This document shows positions 3,913-40,180 of a stretch of DNA of 64,000 bases, piece after piece. Both the position numbers and the translations under genes were made by a program. Every line of letters starts with the position of its first letter. Position 1 is the stretch's first letter. Below the pieces are notes generated by a model, which saw only the letters and a program-made list of their open reading frames with translations, searched no databases and was not told the origin of the DNA. Origin of the DNA: an uncultured Gammaproteobacteria bacterium (GTDB lineage: Bacteria; Patescibacteriota; Microgenomatia; 2-02-FULL-39-11); assembly GCA_964544585.1 (NCBI GenBank), contig CAZJBV010000001.1, positions 45,330 to 109,329 of the forward strand. The letters run 5' to 3'.

Positions 3913-4992
3913 CTAGTTATATCTTAGCACCAGGGAGAGAAGTGATTCCACATCCTCTAATGAATGTTGGGGGAAATTGGCAATTCTTATTTGTTTGTCT
4001 TTGAAATCTTTGTAACCACTTCCGACTATATAGCCTTTTTCTTTTAAATAATTAAGAATTTGTTTTGAACCTCCGGCTATATTTAAGACTGCGACTGTAA
4101 GGGATCTAAATCTTTCCTCTTTGACGAATGGTGTAAACTTGTTATTTTTTTGTGTTAAGTAATAAATTTTTCTTGCTTTTATTATAGTTTCTTTACGGAT
4201 TGCGTTTAATCCTTTTTTATTCATGTCTTGGCAAACTTTTCCGAAAAGATAAATATTTAAGACATTTGGAGTTTCTGGAGTTTCATTTTTTTCATAATAT
4301 TTTAAATAATTTTCAAAAGAGTGATATGATCCTTGGGAAGTTTTTTTCTTTTTGACGGACATTGCCCTATTGATGACGTTGGGTTTGAGAATAAGTACGC
4401 CAAGGCCTGCCGGAAGTCCAAATCCCTTTTGCACGGAGAAAAAAACACAGTCGATCAGGGAAAAATCTACATTCACAAATGGAGCCGATGAGACGATATC
4501 CAGGGCAATAAGAGACTTTGGGAATCTTTTTTGGAAAGAATAAATATCTTCCATCGGAATCATGACGCCTGTCGAAGTTTCGTTTTGGGTAAAACAGGCG
4601 ATTTCAAAATTTATTGGAATTTTTAATTTATTAAAATCAAAGCCTTCCCCCATAGGTACTTCTATTTTTTTAGTATTGATGCTGAGACTTGTGGCGACCT
4701 TATAGAAAAGATTTGAAAATGAGCCGTTGACAAAATGGAGGCTATCTTTGATAACTAAATTTTCGATTATCCGCTCCATAGCTTCGGTAGCGGAAGATAA
4801 AAAAAAGACATAATGGCCTTTTGGAACCCGATACAGTTTTTTAAATTGGGCGATGGCACCTGAATAAATTTCATGAAATTTGTCTCCCCTATGGGAAATT
4901 GAGGGAATATTTAATGCTAGCGCTTCCTTAATATAACGATTTACAGTGGGATAGAGTTGGGAGGGGCCGGGAGTAAAGAAGATCTTTTTCAT
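3913..4992 (-). CDS. serC: Phosphoserine aminotransferase (class V aminotransferase)
   Basis: N-terminus MKKIFFTPGPSQLYPTV typical of SerC; ~360 aa; adjacent to serB-serA fusion. Confidence 0.7.
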   Translation of the reverse strand: MKKIFFTPGPSQLYPTVNRYIKEALALNIPSISHRGDKFHEIYSGAIAQFKKLYRVPKGHYVFFLSSATEAMERIIENLVIKDSLHFVNGSFSNLFYKVATSLSINTKKIEVPMGEGFDFNKLKIPINFEIACFTQNETSTGVMIPMEDIYSFQKRFPKSLIALDIVSSAPFVNVDFSLIDCVFFSVQKGFGLPAGLGVLILKPNVINRAMSVKKKKTSQGSYHSFENYLKYYEKNETPETPNVLNIYLFGKVCQDMNKKGLNAIRKETIIKARKIYYLTQKNNKFTPFVKEERFRSLTVAVLNIAGGSKQILNYLKEKGYIVGSGYKDFKDKQIRIANFPQHSLEDVESLLSLVLRYN

Positions 4993-6912: not shown

Positions 6913-6925
6913 TTTATAAAAAAAT

Positions 6926-22090: not shown

Positions 22091-22420
22091 TTATTTTGTG
22101 CTAATTGCAATTCTAGAAAATATTAAAGTCAATTCTTGTGCTTCTTTCCAGAGAACTCTGCATTCATCTCTTACTTTATCGTCTGCTTTAACAATTAATC
22201 TGAGCCAGTATTTTGTCTCTCTTGCTTCTTTCTTACAAATAACAATTTTGTTTTTAAAATCTTTTTTACTTCCTGCACCGTTTGCTTCGAAATAGTTTGC
22301 TCCTATACTGGTTGCTGCTCTGACCAATTGATTAATAATCGGCGATGTAATAGATGAAGGTTTAACTTTCTTACACATTTCTATTACTCTTTCGGAAAAA
22401 TCGGCTGTTCTTTCTTCCAA
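22091..22420 (-). CDS. Four-helix-bundle protein (23S rRNA intervening-sequence protein family)
   Basis: Characteristic GANYFEANGAGSKKDFKNKIVICKKEARETKYWLRL segment; 109 aa. Confidence 0.7.
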   Translation of the reverse strand: MEERTADFSERVIEMCKKVKPSSITSPIINQLVRAATSIGANYFEANGAGSKKDFKNKIVICKKEARETKYWLRLIVKADDKVRDECRVLWKEAQELTLIFSRIAISTK

Positions 22421-22447: not shown

Positions 22448-24751
22448 TTAAATTACTAATCCTTTCATCTCTACGCTTCCACCACAGTATTTTTGAATAA
22501 TAGCGATTGTTTCGTCGAGAGATCTTTGGACTTTTTGCCGAGTGGCGTCATAAATTCCATCAAGATTTAAAATAACATTTTTCGTATCCAGGGTGACTGC
22601 GGTTCTTTTTGCATCTCGAAAATTAAAATCAATATTGTATCCGCCGATAGCATCAAAATAGGCAATTTCTTTTTCTGTGTAGGCGGTAGGTTTTTCGTCG
22701 CCTAAAAGATGGATTTCTTCTCCTTTTTTGGCAAATCTGATGATGGTCGGCAATTTCATTTTATCCAGATCAAAGGCGCCGACAGAGACTCTATGCTTCA
22801 TAACAATTAGATTGTAAGAATCGACGCAAGTATTTATGGTGTATAATCCTTTTTTAAGAGCAACCCGACGAAGAAGGGCTTCGGGAGAAGGACGACGTGA
22901 ATGCCAGTCGATTCCCGTCTCTTTATAGAGTCTTCTATAACTTATAATCTCCGGATATTTTCCAAGTTCTTCTGTGGTGAGGCCTTGAATTGAAGATAGA
23001 AATTCTTCTTTTTCTTTTTCTAATTCAGGGTTTGTTTTTTCTACTTTTATTCCTTTAATAATGGCGATGCCTATTGAGATCGATGGATATTTTTCTTTTA
23101 ATTTGGGATCGATGGAAAAAATATCCGGTCGAGAAATAGTTTTAATTGTTGATATTTTTTCTTTAGTTTTTTGTTGTTTATTCAGCGTTAATCGTTCGCT
23201 GATTACATCTTTGGGAAATTTATTGAGTAGCCAACCAGCTCTAGGTCCATAAGGTTTATCAAGTATTACTGTATACAATGCTTTAAAGGCATCTTGGTAA
23301 TTGATATTAATGGATTTAGTTAGCTGAAAAATTTCAGATTGCAACTTTTCAGGGTCTTTTGATTCTTGCCAAATTTTTGCCAGACCATTCAAAAATTTCC
23401 ATTGATTTTCAGATAGCGTAATTTCAGGAAATGATTTTATTGATATTTGATACTTATATTCGTTAGGAGCATATTTACTTAACCAAACAGTGGCATTGGT
23501 AAGTCGGTCCTGCAAAATATCATTTTCTTCATCTGTGAGTGAAGATCCTTTAATTTGAGCAAATCGGTCCCAGAGTTTAACGTTTGGAAGTTGTCTAAAA
23601 TTCGCTATATCTCGAAAGCGGGGAATAAAAAGATTAGGATTTTTTGGCGGAATGTCATCAATTTGAGATAATTCATAGGCACGGGAGAGGTCGGGGTCAC
23701 CGCTTTTATTATATGCTTGCCAGCAACGATCGTACTCGTCAAAAAGATCAGGGATAGCCATGGTTTCGACAGGATCAAACTCGATGGCCTGTCGGTAGTC
23801 TGTCCTTGTAAACATAAACCGGACTAGGTATGGTGGCATAATATCTGAAACTTCTTTTGCAGACACACCCATACCTTTACTGGATGACATTTTTTTACCG
23901 CCGATGAGGAAAAATTCGTGCGAAAACCCAAAAGGAGTAGGATAATCAATCACACGTTTACATATTTGTTCTGCAATATCATGCGAGCCTCCGGCGCCCA
24001 TATGGTCTTTACCCGCGCCTTCAATTGTCACGCCAATTACTTTCCATTTGACCGCCCATTCTACTTTCCAAGATAACTTTCCAACAAATTTTCCATTGTT
24101 GCTAAATGGGCTAATTTTACCTTCATACCCGCATCCCTTAGTCCAGTCGACGGCATCTTCTTTGCAGGTAAAATGAACGTTTTCACTATCCCATTTGTAG
24201 ACTCTGGTGGTAGACTCTTTACCGCATTTCGGACAAACTACTTGGAATGGATACCAATCAGGTTGGAGCGACTTTTTGTACATTTTTTCATAAATATCCC
24301 GAATAATATCAGCTTTATCCAGACAAATTTTAATATCCTTGTTCATTTTGCCTGATTTATATAAATCAGCACTCCAGATGATTTTTGGTTCCGATCCAAT
24401 TTTATTGAACACGTGTTTGAATTCCAAAGCAAAGTACTCGGCATAATTTTTCGCAGCTTTGGGATCAGGCGAGGGAATAGTAAATAATGGTTGCCCTAAA
24501 TATTTTTCCCATTTTTCTTTCTCCAGATAAATTGGCAAACCATCCATGGGATCCTGGTCTTCAAAAACATAGCTGAATGTCACTTTTTGTCCGGAGTCTT
24601 TTAAAGCGCGGTTTATTGAGTCGTGTACAACAACGCCCCGAAGTGAACCGACATGAATCCTGCCCGAAGGAGTCTTCATGTCGTCAACCCAGTAGGGAGT
24701 GTATTTACCAGAATCTATTATCTTTTTTGCAATTTTATCGGCCCAGAACAT
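22448..24751 (-). CDS. lysS: Class I lysyl-tRNA synthetase fused to a C-terminal B3/4-like domain
   Basis: HIGH-like PSGRIHVGSLRG and KMSKS-like KMSSSKG; N-terminal catalytic body is about 530 aa (class I LysRS-sized) with a ~230-aa extra C-terminal domain resembling PheT B3/4. Confidence 0.7.
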   Translation of the reverse strand: MFWADKIAKKIIDSGKYTPYWVDDMKTPSGRIHVGSLRGVVVHDSINRALKDSGQKVTFSYVFEDQDPMDGLPIYLEKEKWEKYLGQPLFTIPSPDPKAAKNYAEYFALEFKHVFNKIGSEPKIIWSADLYKSGKMNKDIKICLDKADIIRDIYEKMYKKSLQPDWYPFQVVCPKCGKESTTRVYKWDSENVHFTCKEDAVDWTKGCGYEGKISPFSNNGKFVGKLSWKVEWAVKWKVIGVTIEGAGKDHMGAGGSHDIAEQICKRVIDYPTPFGFSHEFFLIGGKKMSSSKGMGVSAKEVSDIMPPYLVRFMFTRTDYRQAIEFDPVETMAIPDLFDEYDRCWQAYNKSGDPDLSRAYELSQIDDIPPKNPNLFIPRFRDIANFRQLPNVKLWDRFAQIKGSSLTDEENDILQDRLTNATVWLSKYAPNEYKYQISIKSFPEITLSENQWKFLNGLAKIWQESKDPEKLQSEIFQLTKSININYQDAFKALYTVILDKPYGPRAGWLLNKFPKDVISERLTLNKQQKTKEKISTIKTISRPDIFSIDPKLKEKYPSISIGIAIIKGIKVEKTNPELEKEKEEFLSSIQGLTTEELGKYPEIISYRRLYKETGIDWHSRRPSPEALLRRVALKKGLYTINTCVDSYNLIVMKHRVSVGAFDLDKMKLPTIIRFAKKGEEIHLLGDEKPTAYTEKEIAYFDAIGGYNIDFNFRDAKRTAVTLDTKNVILNLDGIYDATRQKVQRSLDETIAIIQKYCGGSVEMKGLVI

Positions 24752-25406
24752 AGACCTTTCCCTTTTTTGCTTTATTCCAATTATACGATAATATGGGCGC
24801 AGAGCATACTAGTGTCATGTTTTTATCGTGATAGTAATGCAGAGAAAAATAATCTGAAAAGCTTGGGTATTGGTTAAGAAAATAAAAACTTTTGCCGTCT
24901 GATAATCCTATATTCATGCCTTCAATTGAACGTGAATGGGAAATGAGAGTTTTGTGGACAGAATCTAAAGCCTGACTTAATGATTTTTTTTGCTTTTTAA
25001 ATAATTGAATAAGAGAAAAAATTTTTTGTGCTCCGATTTTTCCGAAAAGGGGAAGATTTAGGCGAACGCCTTTTAGCATTCCATTGAAAACAAAACAGAG
25101 ACCATCGTCTATATACGGTTGATTGTATTCAATAATCCCCTTTTGGTCGGGAAAGCCTGCGCTCCTGGCGTGGACAATAAGGATTTTAGTTTCAGGCAAT
25201 TGTGGGAAAAGTTTATTATCTTTCCAGATGGGATTAAGTGATTTTTTGGTGATCCATTTTCCCGATGTTTCCCAAGCTACTCCCCAACCGTCATTCTGTA
25301 AATCTCCGTCTGGTGTGCGGCTTTTTTGGCACATTTGGGAAAATGCAGTTAAAAAATGCTGCGGATTAAATTTCCTTTTTGATTTTATGAGAAGGAAACG
25401 GCACAT
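24735..25406 (-). CDS. Class II (Ntn) glutamine amidotransferase-like protein (YafJ/EgtC-like)
   Basis: Starts MCRF (Cys2 nucleophile), DGWGVAW and HARSAG motifs of GATase class II; overlaps lysS start by 17 nt and lies last in the lysine operon. Confidence 0.6.
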   Translation of the reverse strand: MCRFLLIKSKRKFNPQHFLTAFSQMCQKSRTPDGDLQNDGWGVAWETSGKWITKKSLNPIWKDNKLFPQLPETKILIVHARSAGFPDQKGIIEYNQPYIDDGLCFVFNGMLKGVRLNLPLFGKIGAQKIFSLIQLFKKQKKSLSQALDSVHKTLISHSRSIEGMNIGLSDGKSFYFLNQYPSFSDYFSLHYYHDKNMTLVCSAPILSYNWNKAKKGKVYVLGR

Positions 25407-25407
25407 A

Positions 25408-26553
25408 TTAATTTTTAAAAATTTCTTTTAGAGCGTTTATGACCATGTCTACTTCTTTTTTAGTTATCAAGTACGGAGGAAGAAAACGGACTATATTTGA
25501 TCCGGCTGGAATGGCAATAATATTTTTCTCTTGCAAAGCTTTTAGTAACCAGGTAGCATTTTCTTTCAATTGGATTCCAAGCATAAGACCAATACCTCTT
25601 GCCTCTAAAATTTTGTCTGAATCAATTTTTTTCAGTTGGGATAAAAAATATTCTCCAGTTTTTTTAATATGACTAAAGATATCTTTATTACCAAATTCAT
25701 CTAGAGTTGTAACAACACCGGCGCAGGCTAAGGGATTGCCACCAAAAGTAGTTGTATGAAGATGCATGGGAATTTTTTGCGCTATTTGTTCTGTCACGAG
25801 CGTTGCACCAATTGGTATTCCACCACCCAATCCTTTTCCAAGACAAAGAATGTCGGGTGAGATACCAAGTTGCTCTGATGCCAGGAATGTACTTGTTCTT
25901 CCTACTCCTGTTTGAATTTCATCAACAATGAGTAAAATATTGTTTTCCCGGCAGAAAGACTGAAGGGAGTGGAAGTATTCTTTTGACGCTAATTTGATTC
26001 CTCCTTCTCCTTGAATGGGTTCTGTAATAATTCCGGCGATATCTTTCGGTGCCATTTTTTTGAGAGCATTCACTTCACCAAAAGGAATATGAGTAAAATT
26101 CCAAAGAAGCGGAAGAAAGGGTACACGATATTTTTCTCCTCCCGTTGCTGAAAGAGCACCTAATGTTTTTCCATGATAGCCATGTTCCATAGCTATAAAA
26201 TGTTTTTTTCCAGTTGCAAGACAGGCAAATTTTAGAGCTGCCTCTATGGCTTCTGCGCCAGAATTTGAGAAAAATACTTTTGTTAATTTGCCCCCACAAA
26301 TAGTAATTAATTTCTCTGCAGCCTGATTTCTCATTTCGTTGTTAAATGAACCATGAAGATCAATAAGTTTAGATATTTGATTTACTAGTGCATCGTTTAT
26401 CTTTTGATATCCATAGCCAAAAATATTTACACCATAATTACTCCCGAGATCTAGATATTGTTTCCTGCTTGTGTCTATAAGATACATTCCTTTTCCTTTG
26501 ATAAAGGTAATACCCCTATTGGGGTATGAGGCGACTAAATGATTATTTAACAT
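25408..26553 (-). CDS. lysJ: Class III aminotransferase (LysJ/ArgD-type acetylornithine / LysW-gamma-lysine aminotransferase)
   Basis: PLP aminotransferase class III motifs (DEIQTG, catalytic Lys region LCLGKGLGGG). Confidence 0.7.
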   Translation of the reverse strand: MLNNHLVASYPNRGITFIKGKGMYLIDTSRKQYLDLGSNYGVNIFGYGYQKINDALVNQISKLIDLHGSFNNEMRNQAAEKLITICGGKLTKVFFSNSGAEAIEAALKFACLATGKKHFIAMEHGYHGKTLGALSATGGEKYRVPFLPLLWNFTHIPFGEVNALKKMAPKDIAGIITEPIQGEGGIKLASKEYFHSLQSFCRENNILLIVDEIQTGVGRTSTFLASEQLGISPDILCLGKGLGGGIPIGATLVTEQIAQKIPMHLHTTTFGGNPLACAGVVTTLDEFGNKDIFSHIKKTGEYFLSQLKKIDSDKILEARGIGLMLGIQLKENATWLLKALQEKNIIAIPAGSNIVRFLPPYLITKKEVDMVINALKEIFKN

Positions 26554-27341
26554 ATGGTTGTACCTCCACCTTTTAAGGCATTTGTAATAGGATGGGGAAT
26601 TCTGCCATCGCCGAAATAAATTTTTTTTGCTCCGAAATGGATTGCTTCCTTGACGCCGAGAAGTTTTTTTCTCATTCTGTCTTCTGTTTTTTTTATATAT
26701 TGATCTAACTGGTCAAATTTGATTGTTTTAATCATTGATTTTTTATCATCTCTATCCTCTAGTAAACCCGGGGCTTCAAAGAGGATGACTATTTTTTTTA
26801 TATTGAGATCGCGGACCATGACTGCGGCAGCTCTATCATTATCGACATTGATGAGTAGTCCATCAGCGGTTATTGCCGGAATGGTGATAACAGGAATAAA
26901 GCCGGATTTTATAAGCAAGGCTATCAGAGTTTTATTAACTGAAATTACATTTCCGGTGAGAGAGTTTCTTATTATTTTGGTTTTATTGCCTACTTTTGCA
27001 TAAATTACGTCTTTTTGTTTGCCAAGCCAGGTTTTGCCATCGGCTCCGGAAAGTCCAACTGCATTTAGGCCATGTTTTTGCAGTGTAGCGACAATTTTTT
27101 TGTTGATGAGACCACTATAGACCATAGTAAGTAACTCTATGGTTTGGCTATCAGTGTAGCGGCTGGTTTGGCCTGTGGGAGAGGTAATTATTTTTTCTTT
27201 TAACTTTAGTTTTTCGGTAATATCTTTCATCCAGGCATTTGCACCGTGCACTATCACATATTCTTCAGAAATGCTTTGCAAATCCGCGGCAATGTAATCC
27301 CAGTTGATAGCTTTTCCGCCACCAATTTTAATGATAATCAT
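26547..27341 (-). CDS. lysZ: Amino acid kinase LysZ/ArgB-type
   Basis: AAK fold: IIKIGG N-terminus, HGAN, 264 aa; within lys cluster. Confidence 0.7.
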   Translation of the reverse strand: MIIIKIGGGKAINWDYIAADLQSISEEYVIVHGANAWMKDITEKLKLKEKIITSPTGQTSRYTDSQTIELLTMVYSGLINKKIVATLQKHGLNAVGLSGADGKTWLGKQKDVIYAKVGNKTKIIRNSLTGNVISVNKTLIALLIKSGFIPVITIPAITADGLLINVDNDRAAAVMVRDLNIKKIVILFEAPGLLEDRDDKKSMIKTIKFDQLDQYIKKTEDRMRKKLLGVKEAIHFGAKKIYFGDGRIPHPITNALKGGGTTIC

Positions 27342-28350
27342 GACTTCTTTTTAAATTTTTTATAACTTCTTTTGTTACTTCTGTGGTTGTTGCATTGCCC
27401 CCGATATCCGGTGTGGTGCAGTTGTTTTTTATTGTTTTTATGATGGCTTCTTTTATTGCTTGGGAATACTTTTCCAGTTTCAAATATTCCAGCATCAGAC
27501 ATACTGCAAAAAAAGTGGCGAGAGGATTGATGCGGTTTTTCCCTTTGTATTTTGGCGCCGATCCGTGTACTGGTTCAAAAAGAGCATATTTGTTGCCTAT
27601 ATTTGCAGAAGCTGCTACTCCCAATCCTCCAACCAATGCTGCAGCAACATCAGATAAAATATCACCAAACATGTTGGTGGTAACAATAATGTCAAATGTT
27701 TCCGGTTTTTTTACCAAGTTCATTGCACATGAGTCGACCAACATATCATCAAAATAAATAGAAGAATATATTGGAGCAATTTTTTGTGCCATTGCCAAAA
27801 ATAGACCGTCAGTTAAACGCAATACATTAGATTTATGTACGACAGTCACTTTCTTTCGTTTTTGGTTGGTTGCTAAACGAAAGGCAGATTCAATGATGCG
27901 TTTACTTGCGTATGTAGTAATTACTCTTTCTGCTATAGCTCCTTCTTTTGTCTTTTTTTCTCTTCCTATATAGAGATCTTCGGTATTTTCTCTGACGATT
28001 GTAAAATTAATGTCCTGCCGGGTCCCTGGTAATGGCAGTGAAAAAAAAGGTCGGATATTAGCATAAAGATTTAAGTCTCTCCTCAATTTTACAATGGGGC
28101 TGAAATAATTTTTTATATGGGGAGGACTAGTAACGGCTCCAAAGAGTATGGCATCAGCCATTTTACATGTATCGATCGTATGAGAAGGTAAAGGAATACC
28201 GCAATTTAAATAGCAATCATATCCGGCTCTCGCTTCAACAAATCTAAAAGGTATAGGTAATTGCTCCAATAACTGAAGAGATTGGTCGATAACTTCCGGC
28301 CCTATACCATCTCCTTTGATGACACAAATAGTGTATTTATTAGTTTTCAT
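27328..28350 (-). CDS. Homoisocitrate/isopropylmalate dehydrogenase family enzyme (putative homoisocitrate dehydrogenase)
   Basis: ICVIKGDGIGPEV N-terminus, HGSAPKYKGK; 340 aa; between homoaconitase and lysZ. Confidence 0.7.
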   Translation of the reverse strand: MKTNKYTICVIKGDGIGPEVIDQSLQLLEQLPIPFRFVEARAGYDCYLNCGIPLPSHTIDTCKMADAILFGAVTSPPHIKNYFSPIVKLRRDLNLYANIRPFFSLPLPGTRQDINFTIVRENTEDLYIGREKKTKEGAIAERVITTYASKRIIESAFRLATNQKRKKVTVVHKSNVLRLTDGLFLAMAQKIAPIYSSIYFDDMLVDSCAMNLVKKPETFDIIVTTNMFGDILSDVAAALVGGLGVAASANIGNKYALFEPVHGSAPKYKGKNRINPLATFFAVCLMLEYLKLEKYSQAIKEAIIKTIKNNCTTPDIGGNATTTEVTKEVIKNLKRSHDYH

Positions 28351-28808
28351 TGAAATGTAATTATATTTTTTAAACTTTTTAAGCCATTTTTTTGTAAATA
28401 GGGAATAATTCCACCCTCATGGTATAAACGGAGCATCAGAGGAGGAATCAGCACTTTTCTTTCTATGTATAAATTTAAGTCATCTTTTTCATCAATTTTT
28501 GAAGTATCTACCTCGATTAGAAGCATGCCTATATTTAAACAATTTCGGTAAAAGATTCTGGCAAATGATTTTGCCAGGATGGCTTTCACTCCTGCGTACT
28601 TAAGCGCAATTGCCGCTGTCTCCCGGGAACTGCCGCAGCCGAAATTTTCTCCCGCAATAATAAAATCACCTTTTTTAACTTTTTTTCTGAATTCGGGCCT
28701 ATATTCTATAAAAGCAATTTCGGCCAATTTTTTAGCGTCGGTTGTGATGTTGTATCGACCGGGAGTGATAAGGTCAGTATTGATATTGTCGCCAAACATC
28801 CAATTCAT
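28347..28808 (-). CDS. Homoaconitase/3-isopropylmalate dehydratase small subunit (LeuD-like)
   Basis: MNWMFGDNINTDLITPGRY N-terminus typical of LeuD/LysU small subunit. Confidence 0.75.
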   Translation of the reverse strand: MNWMFGDNINTDLITPGRYNITTDAKKLAEIAFIEYRPEFRKKVKKGDFIIAGENFGCGSSRETAAIALKYAGVKAILAKSFARIFYRNCLNIGMLLIEVDTSKIDEKDDLNLYIERKVLIPPLMLRLYHEGGIIPYLQKNGLKSLKNIITFQ

Positions 28809-30082
28809 GATAAATACCTCCTTGGATCTGTAATATATCCAGTAATTGCACTAGCTGCTGCTGTTGCCGGGGACGCCAGATATATTAGAGCTTTGGCGCT
28901 TCCCATGCGGCCGGTAAAGTTTCTATTACTTGTCGATACGCAAATCTCACCATCGGCTAGAACTCCCTGATGCCGTCCGAGACACGGACCACAACCGGGA
29001 TTGGTTATAATCGCTCCAAGTTTGGTGAAAAATTCAATGTATCCTTTATGGAGAGCTTGAATATAGACCAACTTGGAAGCTGGAGTGATAATGACGCGAA
29101 GGCCGGGACGAAGTTTTTCTCCCTTCCACATGATATAGACTATATCGAGATCCTCAATACGACAATTGGTACAGGAGCCTATAAAAACTTGGTCAAGTTT
29201 TATCTTTTCTTTTTCTACTTCAATGACGGTAACGACATTGTCGATATCAGGAGGACGGGCAATAAGAGGTTTCAAATCAGCGACATTAAATGACATTACT
29301 TTTTCATAGTCTGCATCTTTATCACTTTTTAGTTCATTTTCAGAAAAGGCATAATCCCGACTATTTTTCTCTAAATACTCTTTTGTATTTTTGTCTGGTG
29401 GTACGATCGCGGCTTTGGCTCCCATTTCGGCAGACATATTGGTAAGGGTCAACCTATTGGGAACGTTAAAGCTTGATACTACTTCTCCACCATACTCTAA
29501 TACTTTATAGTTACCCCCGTCTGGTCCAATAACTTTTGCCACAGAGAGGATGACGTCTTTAGAAAAGACGCCTTTTTTAAGTCGTCCGTTTATTTCTATT
29601 TTGATTGTTTTTGGTACACGAAACCAGCATTTTCCTGTGGCCATAGCTATCGCTGCATCTGTAGAGCCTACTCCGATAGTTAAAGCGCCTACACCCCCTC
29701 CTGTGGGAGTATGAGAATCGGCACCTAATACCAGATTTCCGGGATTAATGAATCGTTCAGACATAATTTGGTGGCAGACTCCTTCTGTAGTAATTGGTAT
29801 CCTTTGCTCGTCGGCAAATTTGCGAATTGCTGCTTGAAGCGTAGCTACCTGGGTATTCGGTGCAGGAAACGCATGATCAAAAGGAATAAATATTTTCTTT
29901 TTATTCCAAACTTTTTTGGCAATGGCATAGAAAGGTTCTAGCGCCCACGCACAAGTCGTATCATGCGCCATAACTAAATCGAGATCTGCCAAGACAAAGT
30001 CTCCCGCATGTACTTTTTTTCGGGCATGATTAGAAAATATTTTTTCGGCAATAGTTTGTCCCATATTATTGTAAGTTTTCAA
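28805..30082 (-). CDS. Homoaconitase/3-isopropylmalate dehydratase large subunit (aconitase family, archaeal-type LeuC/LysT)
   Basis: MGQTIAEKIFSNH...LVMAHDTT and Fe-S ligand Cys region GSCTN / GCGPCLG. Confidence 0.8.
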   Translation of the reverse strand: MKTYNNMGQTIAEKIFSNHARKKVHAGDFVLADLDLVMAHDTTCAWALEPFYAIAKKVWNKKKIFIPFDHAFPAPNTQVATLQAAIRKFADEQRIPITTEGVCHQIMSERFINPGNLVLGADSHTPTGGGVGALTIGVGSTDAAIAMATGKCWFRVPKTIKIEINGRLKKGVFSKDVILSVAKVIGPDGGNYKVLEYGGEVVSSFNVPNRLTLTNMSAEMGAKAAIVPPDKNTKEYLEKNSRDYAFSENELKSDKDADYEKVMSFNVADLKPLIARPPDIDNVVTVIEVEKEKIKLDQVFIGSCTNCRIEDLDIVYIMWKGEKLRPGLRVIITPASKLVYIQALHKGYIEFFTKLGAIITNPGCGPCLGRHQGVLADGEICVSTSNRNFTGRMGSAKALIYLASPATAAASAITGYITDPRRYLS

Positions 30083-31307
30083 TCCTATTCATCAATATTT
30101 GTTGTTTCATAGGTAATTTTTCTAACTTAAATTCTTCTACGACTTTCTTTAAAAGTACTTCCGGACGGTTTCTTTTCGTAACTCTATGTATATGTTTTTT
30201 AAATAATTTTGCAATTACTTTGGCTTGATCGGGTGTAACATCATAATAGTCAATTTCGCGTAAATAATAATAAATGAGATTCCATCCGCTGAGTGGACCT
30301 AGTAATAACTGGTTTCTAGTTACACCAAATTTTTGTAAATCATGTGCTTCATAAAGTCCATGGTGATTCATTACTGCTTTTTGATGCACTCCTGCGGTAT
30401 GTGTGCGATTGGTAAGAGACACCGGTTCGTTGTAGGGAACATGCCATTTGAGGATTGCGCCCATCAGTACATTAAGAGGATATGCGTATTCTAAATTATA
30501 ATTTTTGCAAAGTTGCCTTTGTTCAAAAAATGAATTGAGAAGAATTCCGGTAAGAGAAGTAATTCCTGATCTTTCAGCCATGCCCCAGATTGATGTATCT
30601 ATATAAGAAACACCAGATTGAATAGCGGTAAGAGCGTTTATTAGAGATAGACCTCGGTCATTGTGGAAGTGGCCCTCTAACATGACTTTTGGGTAGCGTG
30701 TTTTTAAAGCGGTGACATGATGTTTTACTAAGTCTGGGGTGGCACAACCTACGGTATCGGGCATACCAAACATATCAACATATTTATAAATAGTATCGTA
30801 AATACGAAATGTATCTTTTAAAGGAGTCCGGAAACAATCTTCGACACTAAATCGTATTGAAAGGTGTGGATATTTTAAGCGGACTGCAATAATAGTGTCT
30901 TTAATCATTTTTGCAATTGTATCAAAAGAATATCCATGGCTATATTTTTGGGCTCTTTCGGCGATACCCATGTATATTTGTAGTCCATCAAAACCAGCTT
31001 GGATGGCTTCTTCTATATCTTTAGGGTGACAGCGTACATGTGCGTAACAGGAAATTTTTTCTTGCACATTTTGTTGAATAAATTCTCTTAATCGTAAGAA
31101 GTCGTTTTGTTCAGCTTTACTTACGACAGGCGAAAAAAATTCGAATCGGCGAACTCCTAATTGGATGAGACCGTTTAGGAGTACTTTTTTATCGGCAAAA
31201 GAAAAACGATATTTTCCACTATCAAACATTAGTGGGGATTGTTGCCCATCTCGAAATGTTGTATCTATAAAGCCTTTAAATGTATTTAGGTGATTATTTT
31301 TTTTCAT
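30066..31307 (-). CDS. Homocitrate synthase / 2-isopropylmalate synthase family (LeuA/NifV DRE-TIM)
   Basis: TFRDGQQ substrate motif and HFHNDRGLSL...GMAERSG metal-binding HxH motif. Confidence 0.7.
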   Translation of the reverse strand: MKKNNHLNTFKGFIDTTFRDGQQSPLMFDSGKYRFSFADKKVLLNGLIQLGVRRFEFFSPVVSKAEQNDFLRLREFIQQNVQEKISCYAHVRCHPKDIEEAIQAGFDGLQIYMGIAERAQKYSHGYSFDTIAKMIKDTIIAVRLKYPHLSIRFSVEDCFRTPLKDTFRIYDTIYKYVDMFGMPDTVGCATPDLVKHHVTALKTRYPKVMLEGHFHNDRGLSLINALTAIQSGVSYIDTSIWGMAERSGITSLTGILLNSFFEQRQLCKNYNLEYAYPLNVLMGAILKWHVPYNEPVSLTNRTHTAGVHQKAVMNHHGLYEAHDLQKFGVTRNQLLLGPLSGWNLIYYYLREIDYYDVTPDQAKVIAKLFKKHIHRVTKRNRPEVLLKKVVEEFKLEKLPMKQQILMNRIENLQ

Positions 31308-31309
31308 AT

Positions 31310-32377
31310 TTATATGGGGTGAAGTCCGGGAAACTCTAATCCCGTAGTTTCAGGAAACCCATACATAATGTTCATGGCCTGAATTGCCTGGCCGGCAGTA
31401 CCTTTGCCTAGATTATCTATGGCGCCGATTGCAACTAGGCGATTTTCTCTTTCGGAGAGAGCAAAACCGATGTCGCAGTAGTTTGTACCTGTGAGGATTT
31501 TTGGCTCGGGAAAGCGATAGTTGCCTGTTTCTTTTTTGACAAGTCTTACAAATGGTTCGTTTTCGTAAGCTTGGCGATAAGCTTTCCAGACATCAAGTTC
31601 TTTTACGCCATGATGTGGTATGGCGTGGATTGTAACGAGGAGGCCGCGAACTATTTCAATGGTGGTAGCAGTGACAGAGACTTTTAGGTTTTTGACATAT
31701 GGCGATAATTCCTGTTCTATTTCAGCTGTGTGACGATGATTTATTGGCTTGTAAGTTCTGACTACGCCATGACGTTCAGGATGATGTGAAGAATAGGAAG
31801 GAGTATTCCCCCCTTGGGAACTGCTCATTTTGGCATCGATGATAATATCCGGCTTGATAAGTTTGTATTTGACAAGAGGATAAAGAGTTAAGATGGAGAC
31901 AGTAGCCTCACAGCCACCACATGAAACAAACGATGTTTTTTTTATTTTATGGCGATTGAGTTCGGCGATACCGTAGACAAATTTATTTAAAAGGGATGGA
32001 TATAAGTGAGTCGTTTTATACCAATCAGCAAAAATGCTTTTATCGTGCAAGCGAAAATCAGCGCCGAGGTCTATAATTTTTCTGGCACTTTTTTGGGCAA
32101 GGCGCATATATTCCATGGATTTGCCGTTGGGAAGAGCCAGAAATATGAGGTCGGTTTTTTTAATATCTTTAAATCGACAAAAAGTAAGATCTGTTATTTT
32201 TCTTAAGTTAGGATGAACTTCGCCGACTGGCAAACCTGCAAATTTGCGGGAAGTGACATATTTTAATTCAATGTAAGGATGAAAGAGGAGAATGCGAAGT
32301 AACTCTCCGCCTGCATACCCGGACCCGCCAATTATAGAAACAGATATTTTCCTGTTCATGATATTTTTTCCAGACAA
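31310..32377 (-). CDS. lysY: N-acetyl-gamma-glutamyl-phosphate / LysW-aminoadipyl-phosphate reductase (ArgC/LysY)
   Basis: VSIIGGSGYAGGELLR NAD-binding N-terminus, catalytic Cys region; 355 aa. Confidence 0.8.
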   Translation of the reverse strand: MSGKNIMNRKISVSIIGGSGYAGGELLRILLFHPYIELKYVTSRKFAGLPVGEVHPNLRKITDLTFCRFKDIKKTDLIFLALPNGKSMEYMRLAQKSARKIIDLGADFRLHDKSIFADWYKTTHLYPSLLNKFVYGIAELNRHKIKKTSFVSCGGCEATVSILTLYPLVKYKLIKPDIIIDAKMSSSQGGNTPSYSSHHPERHGVVRTYKPINHRHTAEIEQELSPYVKNLKVSVTATTIEIVRGLLVTIHAIPHHGVKELDVWKAYRQAYENEPFVRLVKKETGNYRFPEPKILTGTNYCDIGFALSERENRLVAIGAIDNLGKGTAGQAIQAMNIMYGFPETTGLEFPGLHPI

Positions 32378-33204
32378 TAATTAATAATTTCTCCTGCAAT
32401 GTTTACGTTTGTGACTCTTTGAACGTTTTTAAACTCCATGGTGTGATTGACTTCGTTTATGAGGAGTCCATCGTTTGTTTCAAAGACGTCTATTCCCAAT
32501 ACTCCCTCGCCTATTGCGGCAATAGTTTTTTGGGCGATATCCTCTAAATCTTTGGTAATTTTGCAGTTAAGAGGCAAGGCTCCGCGAGCTGTATTAGTGA
32601 TCCAATGATCACTCTTTCTATATATTGCAGCTATTGCATTACGTCCAATAACATTTAAGCGTATATCTCTTCCGTGCTTTTCTATATATTGCTGCATATA
32701 GAAGGCGTGGTGTGATGGTCCTCCTAAGACTGTTTTACTTTCTAAAATGGACTCGAGACTATCTAAGTCGTTTATTTTGGCTATAAGCCTCCCCCACGAT
32801 CCTGAAACCGGTTTTATAACAACAGGGAATCCCCCCCACGCTTCGACTGCAATCTTTGCTTGACGCTCACTAAATACCATACAAAATTTGGGTGTGGCGA
32901 CTTTATGTTTCCAAAGAGCTAAAGAGGTAATGAATTTATTCTCGCAGACTTGGGCGACAGAAAGAGAGTTTACACAAGGAATATTTAAACTGGCAAAAAA
33001 TTCCAGGGCGTGCATTCCTTTGACGGTTGAGACGCAACGCTCAAGAACGACGTCAAAGCCATAAGAATTATCCGGGTCGAAAATCTGTTCCCGGACATCA
33101 ATAATGTCAAGTGAAACTCTATTTTTTTTAGCTGCCTCGATGATGAGTTTTTCGTCGCCTCTTATGGTTGTATGTAAAAGGCCAATTTTTTTATTTTTTA
33201 GCAT
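32356..33204 (-). CDS. lysX: RimK-type ATP-grasp ligase LysX (LysW--alpha-aminoadipate ligase)
   Basis: 282 aa ATP-grasp; immediately downstream of lysW. Confidence 0.75.
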   Translation of the reverse strand: MLKNKKIGLLHTTIRGDEKLIIEAAKKNRVSLDIIDVREQIFDPDNSYGFDVVLERCVSTVKGMHALEFFASLNIPCVNSLSVAQVCENKFITSLALWKHKVATPKFCMVFSERQAKIAVEAWGGFPVVIKPVSGSWGRLIAKINDLDSLESILESKTVLGGPSHHAFYMQQYIEKHGRDIRLNVIGRNAIAAIYRKSDHWITNTARGALPLNCKITKDLEDIAQKTIAAIGEGVLGIDVFETNDGLLINEVNHTMEFKNVQRVTNVNIAGEIINYCLEKIS

Positions 33205-33207
33205 ATT

Positions 33208-33393
33208 TTATTGCCCCCAATCTTCTTCAACTTTTGGAGCTTCTTTTAAATTAAATTTACTACTTTTGTTGTCGACTGAGACTACTTCAAGCTTTGAACC
33301 ACAATCCTTACAGGAAATAATTTCCGAAACTTCAACGGATGTAATCTTTATATTTGCGTCACATATGGGACAACTACCTAGCATAAAAATCAC
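33208..33393 (-). CDS. lysW: Amino-group carrier protein LysW
   Basis: 61 aa; zinc ribbon CPICD...CKDCG; acidic C-terminus EEDWGQ (LysW EDWGE-like tail); strong RBS AAGGAGGTG. Confidence 0.8.
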   Translation of the reverse strand: MIFMLGSCPICDANIKITSVEVSEIISCKDCGSKLEVVSVDNKSSKFNLKEAPKVEEDWGQ

Positions 33394-33518
33394 CTCCTTT
33401 TAGCCATATCCCAGTACTATGCTTACCTCAAGCCGGAGGCTTCCAGCCTCGCGCTCTTGAGGGGCGCAAGTACGGGATTTGCAAGAGTAATACTCGCAAA
33501 GCTCGTAAACTCTTGCAT

Positions 33519-33545
33519 AAAAAAACCCCTCATTTGAGGGGTTAG
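33519..33545 (-). terminator. Intrinsic terminator hairpin inside lysW leader (attenuator terminator)
   Basis: Minus-strand CCCCUC-AAAU-GAGGGG followed by U7 run. Confidence 0.6.
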
Positions 33546-33569
33546 TAGGTCACGAAACGACAACAGAAA

Positions 33570-33632
33570 CTAACCCCTAATAAAAGGGGGTCGCTTCTTG
33601 GGTTCGTTGACAATATAATTTGTTTGTTTCAT
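33570..33632 (-). CDS. Putative 20-aa leader peptide with tandem Lys codons (MKQTNYIVNEPKKRPPFIRG)
   Basis: ATG 8 nt after a TATAAT -10 (leaderless-like); AAG AAG immediately precedes first attenuator hairpin; stop lies inside antiterminator segment. Confidence 0.35.
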   Translation of the reverse strand: MKQTNYIVNEPKKRPPFIRG

Positions 33633-33671
33633 TATGGACTATTATACCAGAGATATTTATCGAGTCAAATT

Positions 33672-34256: not shown

Positions 34257-34285
34257 TTGTCAAGACAATCTTGAGGCTATATAAT
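34257..34285 (+). promoter_or_regulatory. Putative sigma70-like promoter for tRNA-Glu (TTGTCA-17-TATAAT)
   Basis: ggcTTGTCAagacaatcttgaggctaTATAATacc about 28 nt upstream of tRNA 5' end. Confidence 0.35.
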
Positions 34286-35915: not shown

Positions 35916-36105
35916 GAGCTAAGGAGTACTATACTTTTTCCTTCAAAATTTTCAATATGACTTAATGAATCAAACATAAGCAAAAAATTCTTTTTGTTCG
36001 TTTGCACGTAAAAAATGCTGATGCATTTTTCAGTGTAAAGGCAAAGTTTCCCCCACTATTTAGTGGGGGACAAATAACATCGCAAGGGGCAATTAATTAA
36101 AATTC

Positions 36106-40178: not shown

Positions 40179-40180
40179 AA

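What the first reader, a model, noticed from the sequence alone, without database searches (positions are those of the whole stretch)
24735..33393. Complete-looking LysW-dependent alpha-aminoadipate lysine pathway as one overlapping operon that continues into lysS
Sequence: the operon order is lysW-lysX-lysY-homocitrate synthase-homoaconitase large subunit-small subunit-homoisocitrate dehydrogenase-lysZ-lysJ-GATase-lysS. Nearly every junction overlaps by 4-20 nt. Established knowledge: this route is known from Thermus/Deinococcus and archaea. Inference: finding it in a low-GC bacterium with CPR-like traits suggests horizontal acquisition, likely from archaea given the gene order. Direct transcriptional linkage to class I LysRS is unusual.
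Basis: partly seen in the sequence, partly recalled or inferred. Interest (0 to 1): 0.6.

Follow-up and report, generated by a model that had tools for sequence, protein, structure and literature searches.

The report
Lysine operon with swapped release enzyme
A candidate-phyla-radiation bacterium has a real carrier-protein (LysW) lysine-synthesis operon joined to its lysyl-tRNA synthetase, but the usual last enzyme is replaced by an unrelated cysteine hydrolase and the carrier ends in glutamine instead of the glutamate it needs, a pairing that recurs in many lineages and that I could not find described.

Summary
On the minus strand, 33384..22448, eleven tightly packed genes read lysW-lysX-lysY-HCS-homoaconitase L/S-HICDH-lysZ-lysJ-"GATase"-class I lysS.

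The pathway is not canonical in three ways:
- There is no LysK (M20 LysW-lysine hydrolase) and no LysN in the 64 kb window.
- LysW ends EEDWGQ. The Glu that carries the substrate is encoded as Gln.
- The "GATase" is a standalone EgtC-like Ntn cysteine hydrolase.

Comparative data link these three points:
- The hydrolase sits inside lysW clusters in 63 of 64 informative species-level loci.
- All 18 metagenomic Gln-tailed lysW clusters seen through lysZ and lysJ carry it, and four cut ones do too.
- Of the 120 best matches to a canonical LysW profile, 114 end in Glu. The single Gln-tailed one again has the hydrolase and no M20.
- Glu and Gln swapped at least 10 times among hydrolase-bearing relatives.

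Best reading: the Ntn hydrolase replaces LysK and also matures Gln-LysW to Glu-LysW.

LysRS follows the cluster in 26 of 60 loci, as either class I or class II. A Lys-codon leader attenuator precedes lysW.

Recent transfer from archaea is not supported. This is a new variant of a known pathway, and the biochemistry is untested.

The parts
33641..33668 (-). promoter-like site TTGACT-16-TG-TATAAT just after the greA stop
   Evidence: 11 of 12 consensus matches with an extended -10. This is a consensus match only.
33570..33632 (-). leader ORF MKQTNYIVNEPKKRPPFIRG* with tandem Lys codons AAG AAG at 33599..33594
   Evidence: Analogous Lys-Lys leader ORFs lie upstream of lysW in L009, L022, L026 and L023.
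33517..33590 (-). attenuator-like RNA with three alternative structures: hairpin 1:2 (33589..33574), antiterminator AGGGGUUAG (33578..33570) pairing with CUAACCCCU (33545..33537), and terminator 33543..33524 plus a U7 run
   Evidence: folding energies are -8.5 (hairpin 1:2), -16.3 (antiterminator) and -13.4 (terminator) kcal/mol. There is a weak Rfam Phe_leader hit. Function is inferred.
33208..33384 (-). lysW, amino-group carrier protein, 58 aa, zinc ribbon CPxC...CxxC, tail EEDWGQ (Gln in place of the terminal Glu)
   Evidence: TIGR01206 scores 61.8 against a cut-off of 53.2. It aligns end to end with the three solved LysW proteins, all of which end EDWGE.
32356..33204 (-). lysX, ATP-grasp ligase that loads alpha-aminoadipate onto LysW
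   Evidence: TIGR02144 scores 306 against a cut-off of 275.6; the specificity motif reads N-I-T-NV, against F-I-T-NS (LysX type), Y-I-T-NA (bifunctional type) and I-Y-V-GF (ArgX type).
31310..32359 (-). lysY (ArgC-family reductase)
   Evidence: TIGR01850 scores 379 against a cut-off of 233.6. Specificity for LysW-bound substrate is inferred from context.
30066..31307 (-). homocitrate synthase-like enzyme
   Evidence: Best solved matches are homocitrate synthases (172 and 163 bits) against 75 bits for isopropylmalate synthase. The Thermus HCS residues R12, H72, R133, T166, H195 and H197 are conserved. It scores below the TIGR02146 cut-off (202 against 413).
28805..30064 (-). homoaconitase / isopropylmalate isomerase family large subunit
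   Evidence: TIGR01343 hacA_fam scores 510 against a cut-off of 385.7.
28347..28808 (-). homoaconitase / isopropylmalate isomerase family small subunit
   Evidence: TIGR02087 scores 165 against a cut-off of 109.
27328..28350 (-). homoisocitrate dehydrogenase-like enzyme
   Evidence: best solved matches are T. thermophilus HICDH (313 bits), against 240 bits for isopropylmalate dehydrogenase; it scores below the curated cut-offs.
26547..27341 (-). lysZ, [LysW]-aminoadipate kinase
   Evidence: NF010659 scores 271 against a cut-off of 223.
25408..26553 (-). lysJ, class III aminotransferase
   Evidence: Aminotran_3 matches. The argD subfamily scores 383 (cut-off 410) and the LysJ models score 334 and 328, below their cut-offs of 700.
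24735..25406 (-). standalone EgtC-like Ntn (Cys2) amidohydrolase, proposed LysW-gamma-lysine hydrolase and LysW-Gln deamidase (a LysK analogue)
   Evidence: Searches cover the family, the conserved residues and the fold. Searches cover synteny and its association with the Gln tail.
22448..24751 (-). class I lysyl-tRNA synthetase fused to a C-terminal B3/4 domain, overlapping the hydrolase gene by 17 nt
   Evidence: TIGR00467 scores 353 against a cut-off of 147.6, and PF03483 B3_4 covers residues 605-756.

Best explanation
This is a functional, vertically inherited lysine-synthesis operon of a Gottesmanbacteria-like member of the Microgenomates (candidate phyla radiation). It is a variant of the LysW carrier-protein pathway.

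Proposed route:
1. Homocitrate synthase, homoaconitase and homoisocitrate dehydrogenase make 2-oxoadipate.
2. An aminotransferase not encoded here makes alpha-aminoadipate.
3. LysX attaches it to the gamma-carboxyl of the C-terminal residue of LysW.
4. LysZ, LysY and LysJ convert it to LysW-gamma-lysine.
5. The 223-aa EgtC-like Ntn hydrolase releases lysine, in place of the M20 metallohydrolase LysK. Its Cys2 attacks the gamma-glutamyl amide.

The same chemistry on a gamma-carboxamide would turn the encoded C-terminal Gln58 of LysW into the Glu that LysX needs. A Gln-terminated pro-carrier is therefore tolerated wherever this hydrolase is present.

The operon runs on into lysS. It is probably controlled by a Lys-codon leader-peptide attenuator, so lysine supply and tRNA-Lys charging respond together to uncharged tRNA-Lys.

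Shown here: gene identities, synteny, the Gln tail and its association with the hydrolase, the fold and the conserved catalytic residues. Inferred: both activities of the hydrolase, the attenuation mechanism, and the source of alpha-aminoadipate.
For: Gene identities.

The hydrolase:
- Its N-terminus MCRFL is at least 90% conserved.
- R81 and N108-G109 are invariant in 114 homologues.
- The AlphaFold model has pLDDT 96.4.
- The best structural match is EgtC, which cleaves a gamma-glutamyl amide (Foldseek E = 4e-13, TM 0.72).
- It has no synthase domain.

Synteny:
- In 66 GTDB species-level loci, 63 have the gene inside a lysW-X-Y-Z-J cluster, 2 are cut at a contig end and 1 is unlinked.
- In marine Gammaproteobacteria and other lineages it sits between lysY and lysZ.
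- No M20 gene flanks those clusters.

The Gln tail:
- 16 of 51 hydrolase-linked clusters end in Gln, with at least 10 independent Glu/Gln switches.
- Of 72 metagenomic EEDWGQ-ending LysW loci, all 18 with lysZ and lysJ visible have the hydrolase. There are no counter-examples.
- Of the 120 best matches to a profile of the three solved LysW proteins, 114 end DWGE and 1 ends DWGQ. That one (P0486) has the hydrolase between lysY and lysZ and no M20.
- The Thermococcaceae control has a Glu tail, a bona fide LysK (NF003367 scores 425 against a cut-off of 363) and no hydrolase.
- Among 150 LysW cluster representatives, every tail that keeps DWG ends in E (115) or Q (12); no other residue follows DWG.

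Established knowledge: ATP-grasp ligases activate a carboxylate, so a Gln side chain cannot be loaded.

LysRS linkage.

Attenuator.
Against: - There is no biochemical test, and everything about the hydrolase's substrate is inferred.
- I could not scan whole genomes, so a LysK or another amidase encoded elsewhere is not excluded. Thermus itself keeps lysK outside its cluster (own knowledge).
- One hydrolase-bearing locus (L049) has a generic ArgE/DapE-family gene next to lysW. It scores 72 bits against the LysK model, whose cut-off is 363.
- Two homologues of the hydrolase are not next to lys genes: L007 (Chloroflexi) and L074.
- The metagenome sample was selected for Gln tails. The control set of Glu tails has gene context for only two loci.
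- In ViennaRNA minimum-energy folds of the whole leader the terminator persists under both ribosome masks, so attenuation would have to be kinetic.
- LysN is missing.
- Many related clusters lack the 2-oxoadipate genes, so some of them may make ornithine instead.
Confidence: 0.6

Rival explanations
1. The hydrolase is not the release enzyme. It only deamidates Gln-LysW, or it does something unrelated such as supplying ammonia, and lysine is released by an unlinked LysK or another peptidase.
For: - lysK is unlinked in some canonical organisms. The Anaerolineales cluster L201 has neither enzyme in its cluster.
- L049 has an ArgE/DapE-family gene beside lysW.
- Whole genomes were not searched.
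Against: - About 70% of hydrolase-linked clusters encode Glu-tailed LysW, which needs no deamidation, yet they keep the gene inside the cluster.
- The gene is embedded between lysY and lysZ in other phyla.
- No M20 gene was found in 201 loci apart from the Thermococcaceae control and L049.
- A single-domain class II 'amidotransferase' has no acceptor domain, and its closest fold is a pure hydrolase.
Confidence: 0.2
2. The cluster mainly makes ornithine/arginine, or is bifunctional, rather than lysine. This would resemble the ArgW or Thermococcus-type systems.
For: - LysW systems of Thermococcus and Sulfolobus are bifunctional (PMC12998189).
- LysX position 182 is Asn, which matches no known motif type.
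- Many relatives lack the HCS, homoaconitase and HICDH genes.
- L197 has two LysX paralogues.
Against: - In this window the three 2-oxoadipate enzymes are inside the operon, with the 2-oxoglutarate-binding residues of HCS conserved.
- LysZ passes the [LysW]-aminoadipate kinase equivalog.
- The LysX motif keeps I-T-N of the LysX and bifunctional types and has none of the ArgX residues.
- The operon ends in lysS and starts with a Lys-codon leader.
Confidence: 0.15
3. One reading: the operon is a recent horizontal acquisition from archaea into a CPR genome.
For: - The core order W-X-Y-Z-J-(hydrolase) resembles the Thermococcus order W-X-Y-Z-J-K.
- Class I LysRS matches the 'lysS_arch' model.
- A serine-recombinase island lies about 1 kb upstream.
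Against: - The cluster and its flanking synteny are shared by five Microgenomates lineages.
- There is no GC anomaly.
- LysX scores 245/229 bits against Thermus and 202 against Thermococcus. HICDH scores 313 against Thermus and 206 against Thermococcus.
- Scores against bacterial clusters exceed those against the Thermococcaceae cluster for LysX, LysY, LysZ and LysJ.
- The recombinase island ends at a tRNA-Glu on the far side of greA.
Confidence: 0.08
4. With a Gln tail the substrate is attached to the alpha-carboxyl of the last residue, as in RimK, so no deamidation is needed.
For: LysX is a RimK-family ligase, and RimK extends a C-terminal alpha-carboxyl (for the family hits; the RimK chemistry is own knowledge).
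Against: - Glu and Gln alternate among close relatives that share the same enzyme set.
- Only E or Q ever follows DWG. That argues for a side-chain role.
- Solved complexes show gamma-linkage at the terminal Glu (PMC12998189).
- The associated hydrolase has the fold of a gamma-glutamyl amidase.
Confidence: 0.03

Closest known systems
Thermus thermophilus LysW (amino-group carrier protein) alpha-aminoadipate lysine pathway: HCS, LysT/U, HICDH, LysN, LysW, LysX, LysZ, LysY, LysJ, LysK
   Same: - The carrier has the same zinc ribbon and acidic EDWG tail.
- LysX, LysZ, LysY and LysJ are homologous.
- HCS and HICDH are closest to the Thermus enzymes.
- From my own knowledge, the Thermus cluster also has a Lys-codon leader-peptide attenuator.
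   Different: - The terminal residue is Gln, not Glu.
- There is no LysK. An Ntn cysteine hydrolase occupies its place.
- No LysN lies nearby.
- All genes form one operon that continues into lysS.
Thermococcus kodakarensis / Thermococcaceae bifunctional LysW cluster (HCS-HACN-HICDH-lysW-X-Y-Z-J-K)
   Same: It is a single cluster that holds both the 2-oxoadipate genes and the carrier-dependent genes, with the core order W-X-Y-Z-J followed by a hydrolase.
   Different: - The last gene there is the M20 [LysW]-lysine hydrolase; here it is an EgtC-like Ntn hydrolase.
- The carrier tail there is Glu.
- Here the 2-oxoadipate block is inserted between lysY and lysZ.
EgtC, the ergothioneine-biosynthetic Ntn hydrolase (PDB 4zfj/4zfk/4zfl)
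   Same: - It is a standalone class II glutamine-amidotransferase fold with an N-terminal Cys nucleophile.
- It hydrolyses a gamma-glutamyl-N-alpha amide, the bond type present in LysW-gamma-Lys (the chemistry is own knowledge).
   Different: - Sequence identity is only about 17%.
- The EgtC equivalog scores 36.5 bits against a cut-off of 218.65.
- There are no egt genes nearby.
- The proposed substrate here is a protein C-terminus.
Leader-peptide transcription attenuators (the trp/phe/his type; the Thermus lysine cluster leader, from own knowledge)
   Same: The elements match: a promoter, a short ORF with tandem codons for the end-product amino acid, mutually exclusive 1:2, 2:3 and 3:4 pairings, and a U-run terminator.
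   Different: - Only two adjacent Lys codons are present.
- There is no Rfam family for it; the best hit is a weak Phe_leader match.
- It is untested.

Membership tests
LysW/AmCP-mediated alpha-aminoadipate lysine pathway | Small zinc-ribbon carrier protein with an acidic C-terminal EDWG motif | tested here: met
   TIGR01206 scores 61.8 against a cut-off of 53.2, and PF21344 matches. CPIC...CKDC and EEDWG are present. It aligns end to end with the three solved LysW proteins.
LysW/AmCP-mediated alpha-aminoadipate lysine pathway | C-terminal Glu whose gamma-carboxyl carries the substrate | tested here: not met
   The encoded last residue is Gln (CAA TAA). All three solved LysW proteins end in Glu. 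A Glu could arise only by post-translational deamidation, which is inferred.
LysW/AmCP-mediated alpha-aminoadipate lysine pathway | LysX ATP-grasp ligase with an aminoadipate-type pocket | tested here: inconclusive
   TIGR02144 scores 306 against a cut-off of 275.6. The signature motif N-I-T-NV shares I, T and N with the LysX type (F-I-T-NS) and the bifunctional type (Y-I-T-NA), and shares nothing with the ArgX type (I-Y-V-GF). Position 182 is a new residue.
LysW/AmCP-mediated alpha-aminoadipate lysine pathway | LysZ kinase, LysY reductase and LysJ aminotransferase | tested here: met
   LysZ passes NF010659 (271 against 223). LysY passes TIGR01850 (379 against 233.6). LysJ matches Aminotran_3; its argD subfamily score is 383, just under the cut-off of 410, and the LysJ models score 334 and 328. 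All three lie beside lysW and lysX.
LysW/AmCP-mediated alpha-aminoadipate lysine pathway | LysK, the M20 [LysW]-lysine hydrolase | tested here: not met
   No Peptidase_M20 hit among the operon proteins. phmmer with a verified LysK (L200; NF003367 scores 425 against 363) finds nothing in the 64 kb window. The rest of the genome could not be searched.
LysW/AmCP-mediated alpha-aminoadipate lysine pathway | Homocitrate synthase, homoaconitase and homoisocitrate dehydrogenase that supply 2-oxoadipate | tested here: inconclusive
   - HCS is nearest to solved homocitrate synthases, and the 2-oxoglutarate-binding residues are conserved, but it scores below the TIGR02146 cut-off (202 against 413).
- The homoaconitase family TIGR01343 is passed.
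- The dehydrogenase is nearest to Thermus HICDH (313 bits) but is below the curated cut-offs.
- Specificity leans toward the lysine route and is not proven.
LysW/AmCP-mediated alpha-aminoadipate lysine pathway | LysN, the 2-oxoadipate aminotransferase | tested here: not met
   None of the window ORFs that I scanned is LysN-like. The only other aminotransferase found is SerC-like, at 3913..4992. Several smaller ORFs were not scanned, and absence from the whole genome is not testable.
Class II (Ntn) glutamine amidotransferase / EgtC-like hydrolases | N-terminal Cys nucleophile after Met removal, a conserved Arg, and an Asn-Gly oxyanion pair | tested here: met
   MCRFL is at least 90% conserved. 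R81, N108 and G109 are invariant in 114 sequences.
Class II (Ntn) glutamine amidotransferase / EgtC-like hydrolases | Ntn alpha-beta-beta-alpha fold, standalone with no synthase domain | tested here: met
   The model has pLDDT 96.4. The top Foldseek hits are EgtC (E = 4e-13, TM 0.72), then 3mdn, 1te5 and the GlmS glutaminase domain. The protein is 223 aa and has a single domain.
EgtC (ergothioneine pathway) proper | Passing the TIGR03442 equivalog score and lying in an egt gene context | tested here: not met
   It scores 36.5 bits against a cut-off of 218.65. The neighbours are lys genes in 63 of 64 informative loci.
Class I lysyl-tRNA synthetase | Passing the TIGR00467 equivalog score | tested here: met
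   It scores 353 against a cut-off of 147.55 over residues 1-522, and carries an extra B3_4 domain at 605-756.
Leader-peptide transcription attenuator | Short ORF with tandem regulatory codons, mutually exclusive antiterminator and terminator hairpins, and a U-run | tested here: inconclusive
   All the sequence elements are present, and the same layout recurs in L009, L022, L026, L023 and L017. The full-length minimum-energy fold keeps the terminator. There is no expression data.

The most novel reading that the evidence does not exclude
A large, unannotated family of EgtC-like Ntn cysteine hydrolases is the LysW-lysine (or LysW-ornithine) hydrolase of a second, LysK-independent version of the amino-group-carrier-protein pathway. 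The family holds thousands of proteins in CPR Microgenomates, marine Gammaproteobacteria and other lineages.

The same enzyme would double as a maturase that creates the carrier's attachment residue by deamidating a genetically encoded C-terminal Gln. That would be the first carrier protein made as a pro-form and activated by its own release enzyme.
Probability: 0.55. Interest if true: 0.75.

Novelty: new variant of a known kind. Interest (0 to 1): 0.65.

Why it matters
- It would add a second, non-homologous solution for the last step of carrier-protein-mediated lysine and arginine synthesis.
- It would explain why many LysW genes encode Gln at the residue that must be Glu.
- It would give a function to a widespread family now labelled only 'class II glutamine amidotransferase' or 'hypothetical'. 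Pathway-reconstruction tools that require LysK currently score these genomes as lysine auxotrophs.
- It shows that a whole class of CPR bacteria, usually assumed to depend on hosts for amino acids, keeps a compact, regulated lysine pathway coupled to LysRS.
- The prediction is cheap to test in vitro with three small proteins.

Tried and rejected
- **Riboswitch or T-box upstream of lysW.** Rfam at gathering and at E-value thresholds gave only a weak Phe_leader hit. That led to the leader-peptide reading instead.
- **Mapping the Asp that binds the glutamine alpha-amino group.** This is D123 in GlmS. I wanted to see whether it is lost, as expected for a peptide-linked substrate. hhalign aligned only 19 columns around the NG motif, and hmmsearch against PDB reached only 3mdn. 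This stays unresolved.
- **Minimum-energy folding of the whole leader with ribosome masks.** The terminator persisted. Only the nascent-transcript fold shows the stronger antiterminator.
- **Naming the source organism.** The exact-sequence cluster look-up gave no names. Placement as Gottesmanbacteria-like rests on best homologues and on the neighbour-joining tree.
- **Literature.** Eight full-text searches covered LysW with CPR, Gottesmanbacteria, amidotransferase or Ntn hydrolase; 'amino-group carrier protein' alone; LysW with LysK and LysX; aminoadipate with Microgenomates; and the Thermus leader-peptide attenuator. None described this variant.
- **Leucine or coenzyme B paralogues (LeuA/C/D/B, AksA/D/E/F).** Rejected for the synthase and the dehydrogenase on nearest solved homologues and substrate residues. 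Not fully excluded for the isomerase.
- **Predicting a hydrolase-LysW complex.** Not attempted, because the tool returns no contact information and refuses non-window sequences.

Full report
**1. Observation**

The region holds eleven co-directional genes on the minus strand. Pfam and NCBIfam identify them as follows.

| Gene | Coordinates (minus strand) | Key evidence |
|---|---|---|
| lysW | 33384..33208 | TIGR01206 scores 61.8, cut-off 53.2 |
| lysX | 33204..32356 | TIGR02144 scores 306, cut-off 275.6 |
| lysY (ArgC family) | 32359..31310 | TIGR01850 scores 379, cut-off 233.6 |
| HMGL-like synthase | 31307..30066 | see section 2 |
| aconitase-family large subunit | 30064..28805 | TIGR01343 scores 510, cut-off 385.7 |
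| aconitase-family small subunit | 28808..28347 | TIGR02087 scores 165, cut-off 109 |
| Iso_dh dehydrogenase | 28350..27328 | see section 2 |
| lysZ | 27341..26547 | NF010659 [LysW]-aminoadipate kinase scores 271, cut-off 223 |
| lysJ | 26553..25408 | Aminotran_3 |
| GATase_4 protein, 223 aa | 25406..24735 | see section 3 |
| class I LysRS + C-terminal B3/4 domain, 767 aa | 24751..22448 | TIGR00467 scores 353, cut-off 147.6 |

With ATG starts, six of the ten junctions overlap by 4-17 nt and the other four are 1-3 nt apart. LysW ends ...EEDWGQ followed by TAA and has a strong ribosome-binding site.

One caveat applies. Nearly every gene from 250 to 40810 is on the minus strand. The operon call therefore rests on the overlaps and on conservation elsewhere, not on shared direction.

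**2. Lysine rather than leucine or arginine**

- The synthase is closest to solved homocitrate synthases: S. pombe 172 bits and T. thermophilus 163 bits, against 75 bits for isopropylmalate synthase and 58 bits for citramalate synthase.
- It keeps the Thermus HCS residues R12, H72, R133, T166, H195 and H197. The role of those residues is from my own knowledge.
- The dehydrogenase is closest to T. thermophilus homoisocitrate dehydrogenase (313 bits, against 240 bits for isopropylmalate dehydrogenase).
- The LysX specificity motif was read through alignment to 1uc8 and 5k2m. It is N-I-T-NV. The reference types are F-I-T-NS (LysX), Y-I-T-NA (bifunctional) and I-Y-V-GF (ArgX) (PMC12998189). It is therefore not ArgX-like. 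An extra ornithine-forming activity cannot be excluded.
- Several models fall below the curated cut-offs: HCS, HICDH and LysJ. I take this as divergence in the candidate phyla radiation.

**3. What is missing, and what stands in its place**

No M20 peptidase (LysK) and no LysN-type aminotransferase is in the operon. phmmer with a verified LysK finds no homologue in the window, and none of the ORFs I scanned is LysN-like.

The gene after lysJ encodes a single-domain protein that starts MCRFL. Across 114 homologues:
- Cys2 is at least 90% conserved.
- R81 and N108-G109 are invariant.

These are the nucleophile, the carboxylate-binding Arg and the oxyanion pair of class II (Ntn) amidotransferases (own knowledge; the NG motif alignment is).

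By sequence the protein is remote from everything curated:
- Pfam GATase_4 scores 22.6 bits, just under its cut-off.
- The EgtC equivalog scores 36.5 bits against a cut-off of 218.65.
- The best PDB sequence match is 3mdn at E = 4.6e-4.

The AlphaFold model is confident (pLDDT 96.4). Its best structural matches are all EgtC chains (E = 4e-13, TM 0.72). Other standalone Ntn proteins and the GlmS and PurF glutaminase domains follow. EgtC hydrolyses a gamma-glutamyl-N-alpha amide. That is the bond type that joins LysW to lysine.

**4. Comparative test of the link between the hydrolase and LysW**

- Close homologues come almost entirely from Candidatus Gottesmanbacteria and other Microgenomates.
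- A scan of one genome per GTDB species returned 66 loci. I labelled their ORFs with the window proteins.
- 63 loci have the hydrolase gene inside a lysW-X-Y-(2-oxoadipate genes, optional)-Z-J cluster. Almost always it comes directly after lysJ. Two loci are cut at a contig end, and one (L074) is unlinked.
- The HCS-to-HICDH block can be absent, can lie between lysY and lysZ as here, or can follow the hydrolase (L025).
- A Chloroflexi homologue stands alone (L007).

**5. The Gln tail**

Among 51 non-redundant hydrolase-linked clusters, 35 LysW proteins end DWGE and 16 end DWGQ. A neighbour-joining tree of the concatenated enzymes needs at least 10 Glu/Gln switches, some between close sisters.

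I then scanned metagenome contigs for DNA encoding EEDWGQ followed by a stop codon:
- 72 of the 120 hits are LysW-like ORFs.
- 22 of those loci show the hydrolase.
- All 18 loci in which both lysZ and lysJ are visible have it.
- The other 50 are cut by contig ends, and there is no counter-example.

Most of these belong to a different lineage with the order lysW-X-Y-hydrolase-Z-J. Sources label its members as marine Gammaproteobacteria MAGs. The search returned 3029 relatives, annotated only as 'glutamine amidotransferase' or 'hypothetical'. No M20 gene lies in the flanks.

Controls:
- The three solved LysW proteins all end EDWGE.
- Of the 120 best database matches to their profile, 114 end DWGE and one ends DWGQ.
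- I looked up that one, P0486, as a prospective test. Its cluster is lysW-HCS-lysX-lysX-lysY-[219 aa]-lysZ-lysJ. The 219-aa protein starts MCRIL and is 36% identical to the window hydrolase (E = 4e-42). There is no M20 gene.
- A Thermococcaceae cluster has a Glu tail, a bona fide LysK (NF003367 scores 425, cut-off 363) and no hydrolase.
- An Anaerolineales cluster has a Glu tail and neither enzyme in the cluster.
- Among 150 LysW cluster representatives, every tail that keeps DWG ends in E (115) or Q (12). No other residue follows DWG.

**6. Mechanism (inferred)**

LysX is an ATP-grasp ligase and must phosphorylate a carboxylate. A Gln side chain therefore cannot be loaded (established enzymology). 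The only alternative to Glu ever seen is its amide, and it is seen only where a gamma-glutamyl-amidase-type Ntn hydrolase sits in the cluster.

The simplest account is that this hydrolase does two jobs:
- It cleaves LysW-gamma-Lys, which is the LysK reaction.
- By the same acyl-enzyme chemistry it converts Gln-LysW to Glu-LysW.

That would make a GAA/CAA change nearly neutral, which fits the repeated switches. A role limited to maturation is unlikely, because about 70% of hydrolase-linked LysW proteins already encode Glu. None of this has been tested biochemically. Whole genomes could not be searched for an unlinked LysK.

**7. Link to LysRS, and regulation**

LysRS follows the hydrolase gene in 26 of 60 informative loci. 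In 20 it is class I. In 6 it resembles class II, and L005 was verified (TIGR00499 scores 553, cut-off 427.6). The adjacency survives a change of LysRS class, so it is functional and not accidental.

Upstream of lysW lie these elements:
- a promoter-like site at 33668..33641;
- a 20-codon ORF with tandem Lys codons at 33599..33594;
- hairpin 1:2, at -8.5 kcal/mol;
- a 9-bp antiterminator, AGGGGUUAG pairing with CUAACCCCU, at -16.3 kcal/mol;
- a U7 terminator, at -13.4 kcal/mol.

The same layout occurs upstream of lysW in L009, L022 and L026 (leader ...KKEVKKPR.), in L023 and in L017. A classical Lys-tRNA-sensing attenuator would co-regulate lysine synthesis and LysRS. It is unproven, because the full-length minimum-energy fold keeps the terminator.

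**8. Origin**

- GC content is uniform across the region.
- The cluster and its flanks (LysRS, SerRS, SpeE-like, SecA) are shared across the Microgenomates.
- The enzymes score better against Thermus, Gammaproteobacteria and Anaerolineales homologues than against Thermococcaceae ones.

Recent transfer from archaea is not supported. An ancient transfer cannot be judged without proper trees.

**9. Novelty**

Eight full-text searches found no description of LysW with an amidotransferase or Ntn hydrolase, of Gln-terminated LysW, or of this pathway in the Microgenomates. Many subscription papers are not in that library.

I rate this a new variant of a known pathway. The operon itself is an ordinary, if unexpected, member of the LysW family. 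The enzyme swap and the pro-carrier are the interesting part.

Noticed in passing
window 22448-24751 (-), 21470-22036 (-); L005:10693-12798; L197:2938-5691: LysRS is repeatedly joined to a B3/4 domain (the PheRS-beta editing-domain family) and to an HD/HDIG phosphohydrolase. The window has class I LysRS+B3_4, then a separate HD protein two genes downstream. L005 has class II LysRS+HD (701 aa). L197 has class II LysRS+B3_4+HD (917 aa). The pattern holds regardless of LysRS class. It suggests a LysRS-associated editing or Ap4A-handling module.
   Followed up: partly
window 33517-33668 (-): A candidate Lys-codon leader-peptide attenuator lies between greA and lysW. It has no Rfam family. Similar leaders occur in at least five related loci.
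   Followed up: partly
window 34260-40810: A tRNA-Glu(CTC) at 34313-34391 (+) is overlapped by the 3' end of a large serine recombinase ORF (34260-35915, -). Next come a 1202-aa ORF and a 209-aa ORF with no Pfam hits. This looks like an integrated element inserted at the tRNA, right next to greA and the lys operon.
   Followed up: no
window 3913-8014: A serine-synthesis set is present: a fused SerB-SerA (639 aa, 4993-6912) and a SerC-like aminotransferase (3913-4992). Beside them is a second Iso_dh paralogue of the tartrate dehydrogenase / isopropylmalate dehydrogenase type (6926-8014, +). That is more amino-acid metabolism than is usually credited to CPR genomes.
   Followed up: no
L007:10001-10669 and L074:6559-7206: Two homologues of the hydrolase are not next to any lys gene. 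L007 (51% identity) is on a contig labelled Chloroflexi. L074 (41% identity) is on a contig labelled Peregrinibacteria. Either the lysW cluster is elsewhere in those genomes or the family has another substrate.
   Followed up: no
L049:4466-5608: One Roizmanbacteria locus with a Gln-tailed LysW and the hydrolase also has a generic ArgE/DapE-family M20 gene directly upstream of lysW. It scores 72 bits against the LysK model, whose cut-off is 363. It is the only M20 hit in 201 loci apart from the Thermococcaceae control.
   Followed up: partly
L197:11289-12958; L101:6778-6957; L148:462-662: Some hydrolase-type clusters have duplicated parts. L197 has two tandem LysX paralogues, possibly a LysX plus an ArgX. 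L101 and L148 have a second LysW-like ORF that lacks the DWG tail.
   Followed up: no
L013, L021, L023, L025, L026 and others; L015, L018: Many contigs titled 'uncultured Gammaproteobacteria' (TPA MAGs) carry typical Microgenomates clusters. Near-identical clusters are labelled Dehalococcoidia (L015) and Borrarchaeota (L018). Record titles in this collection are unreliable for taxonomy.
   Followed up: no
window 22091-22420 (-); L201:4887-5255: A '23S rRNA intervening-sequence protein' family gene sits just after lysS in the window. The same family sits inside the Anaerolineales lysW cluster, between lysY and lysZ. This recurrence is unexplained.
   Followed up: no
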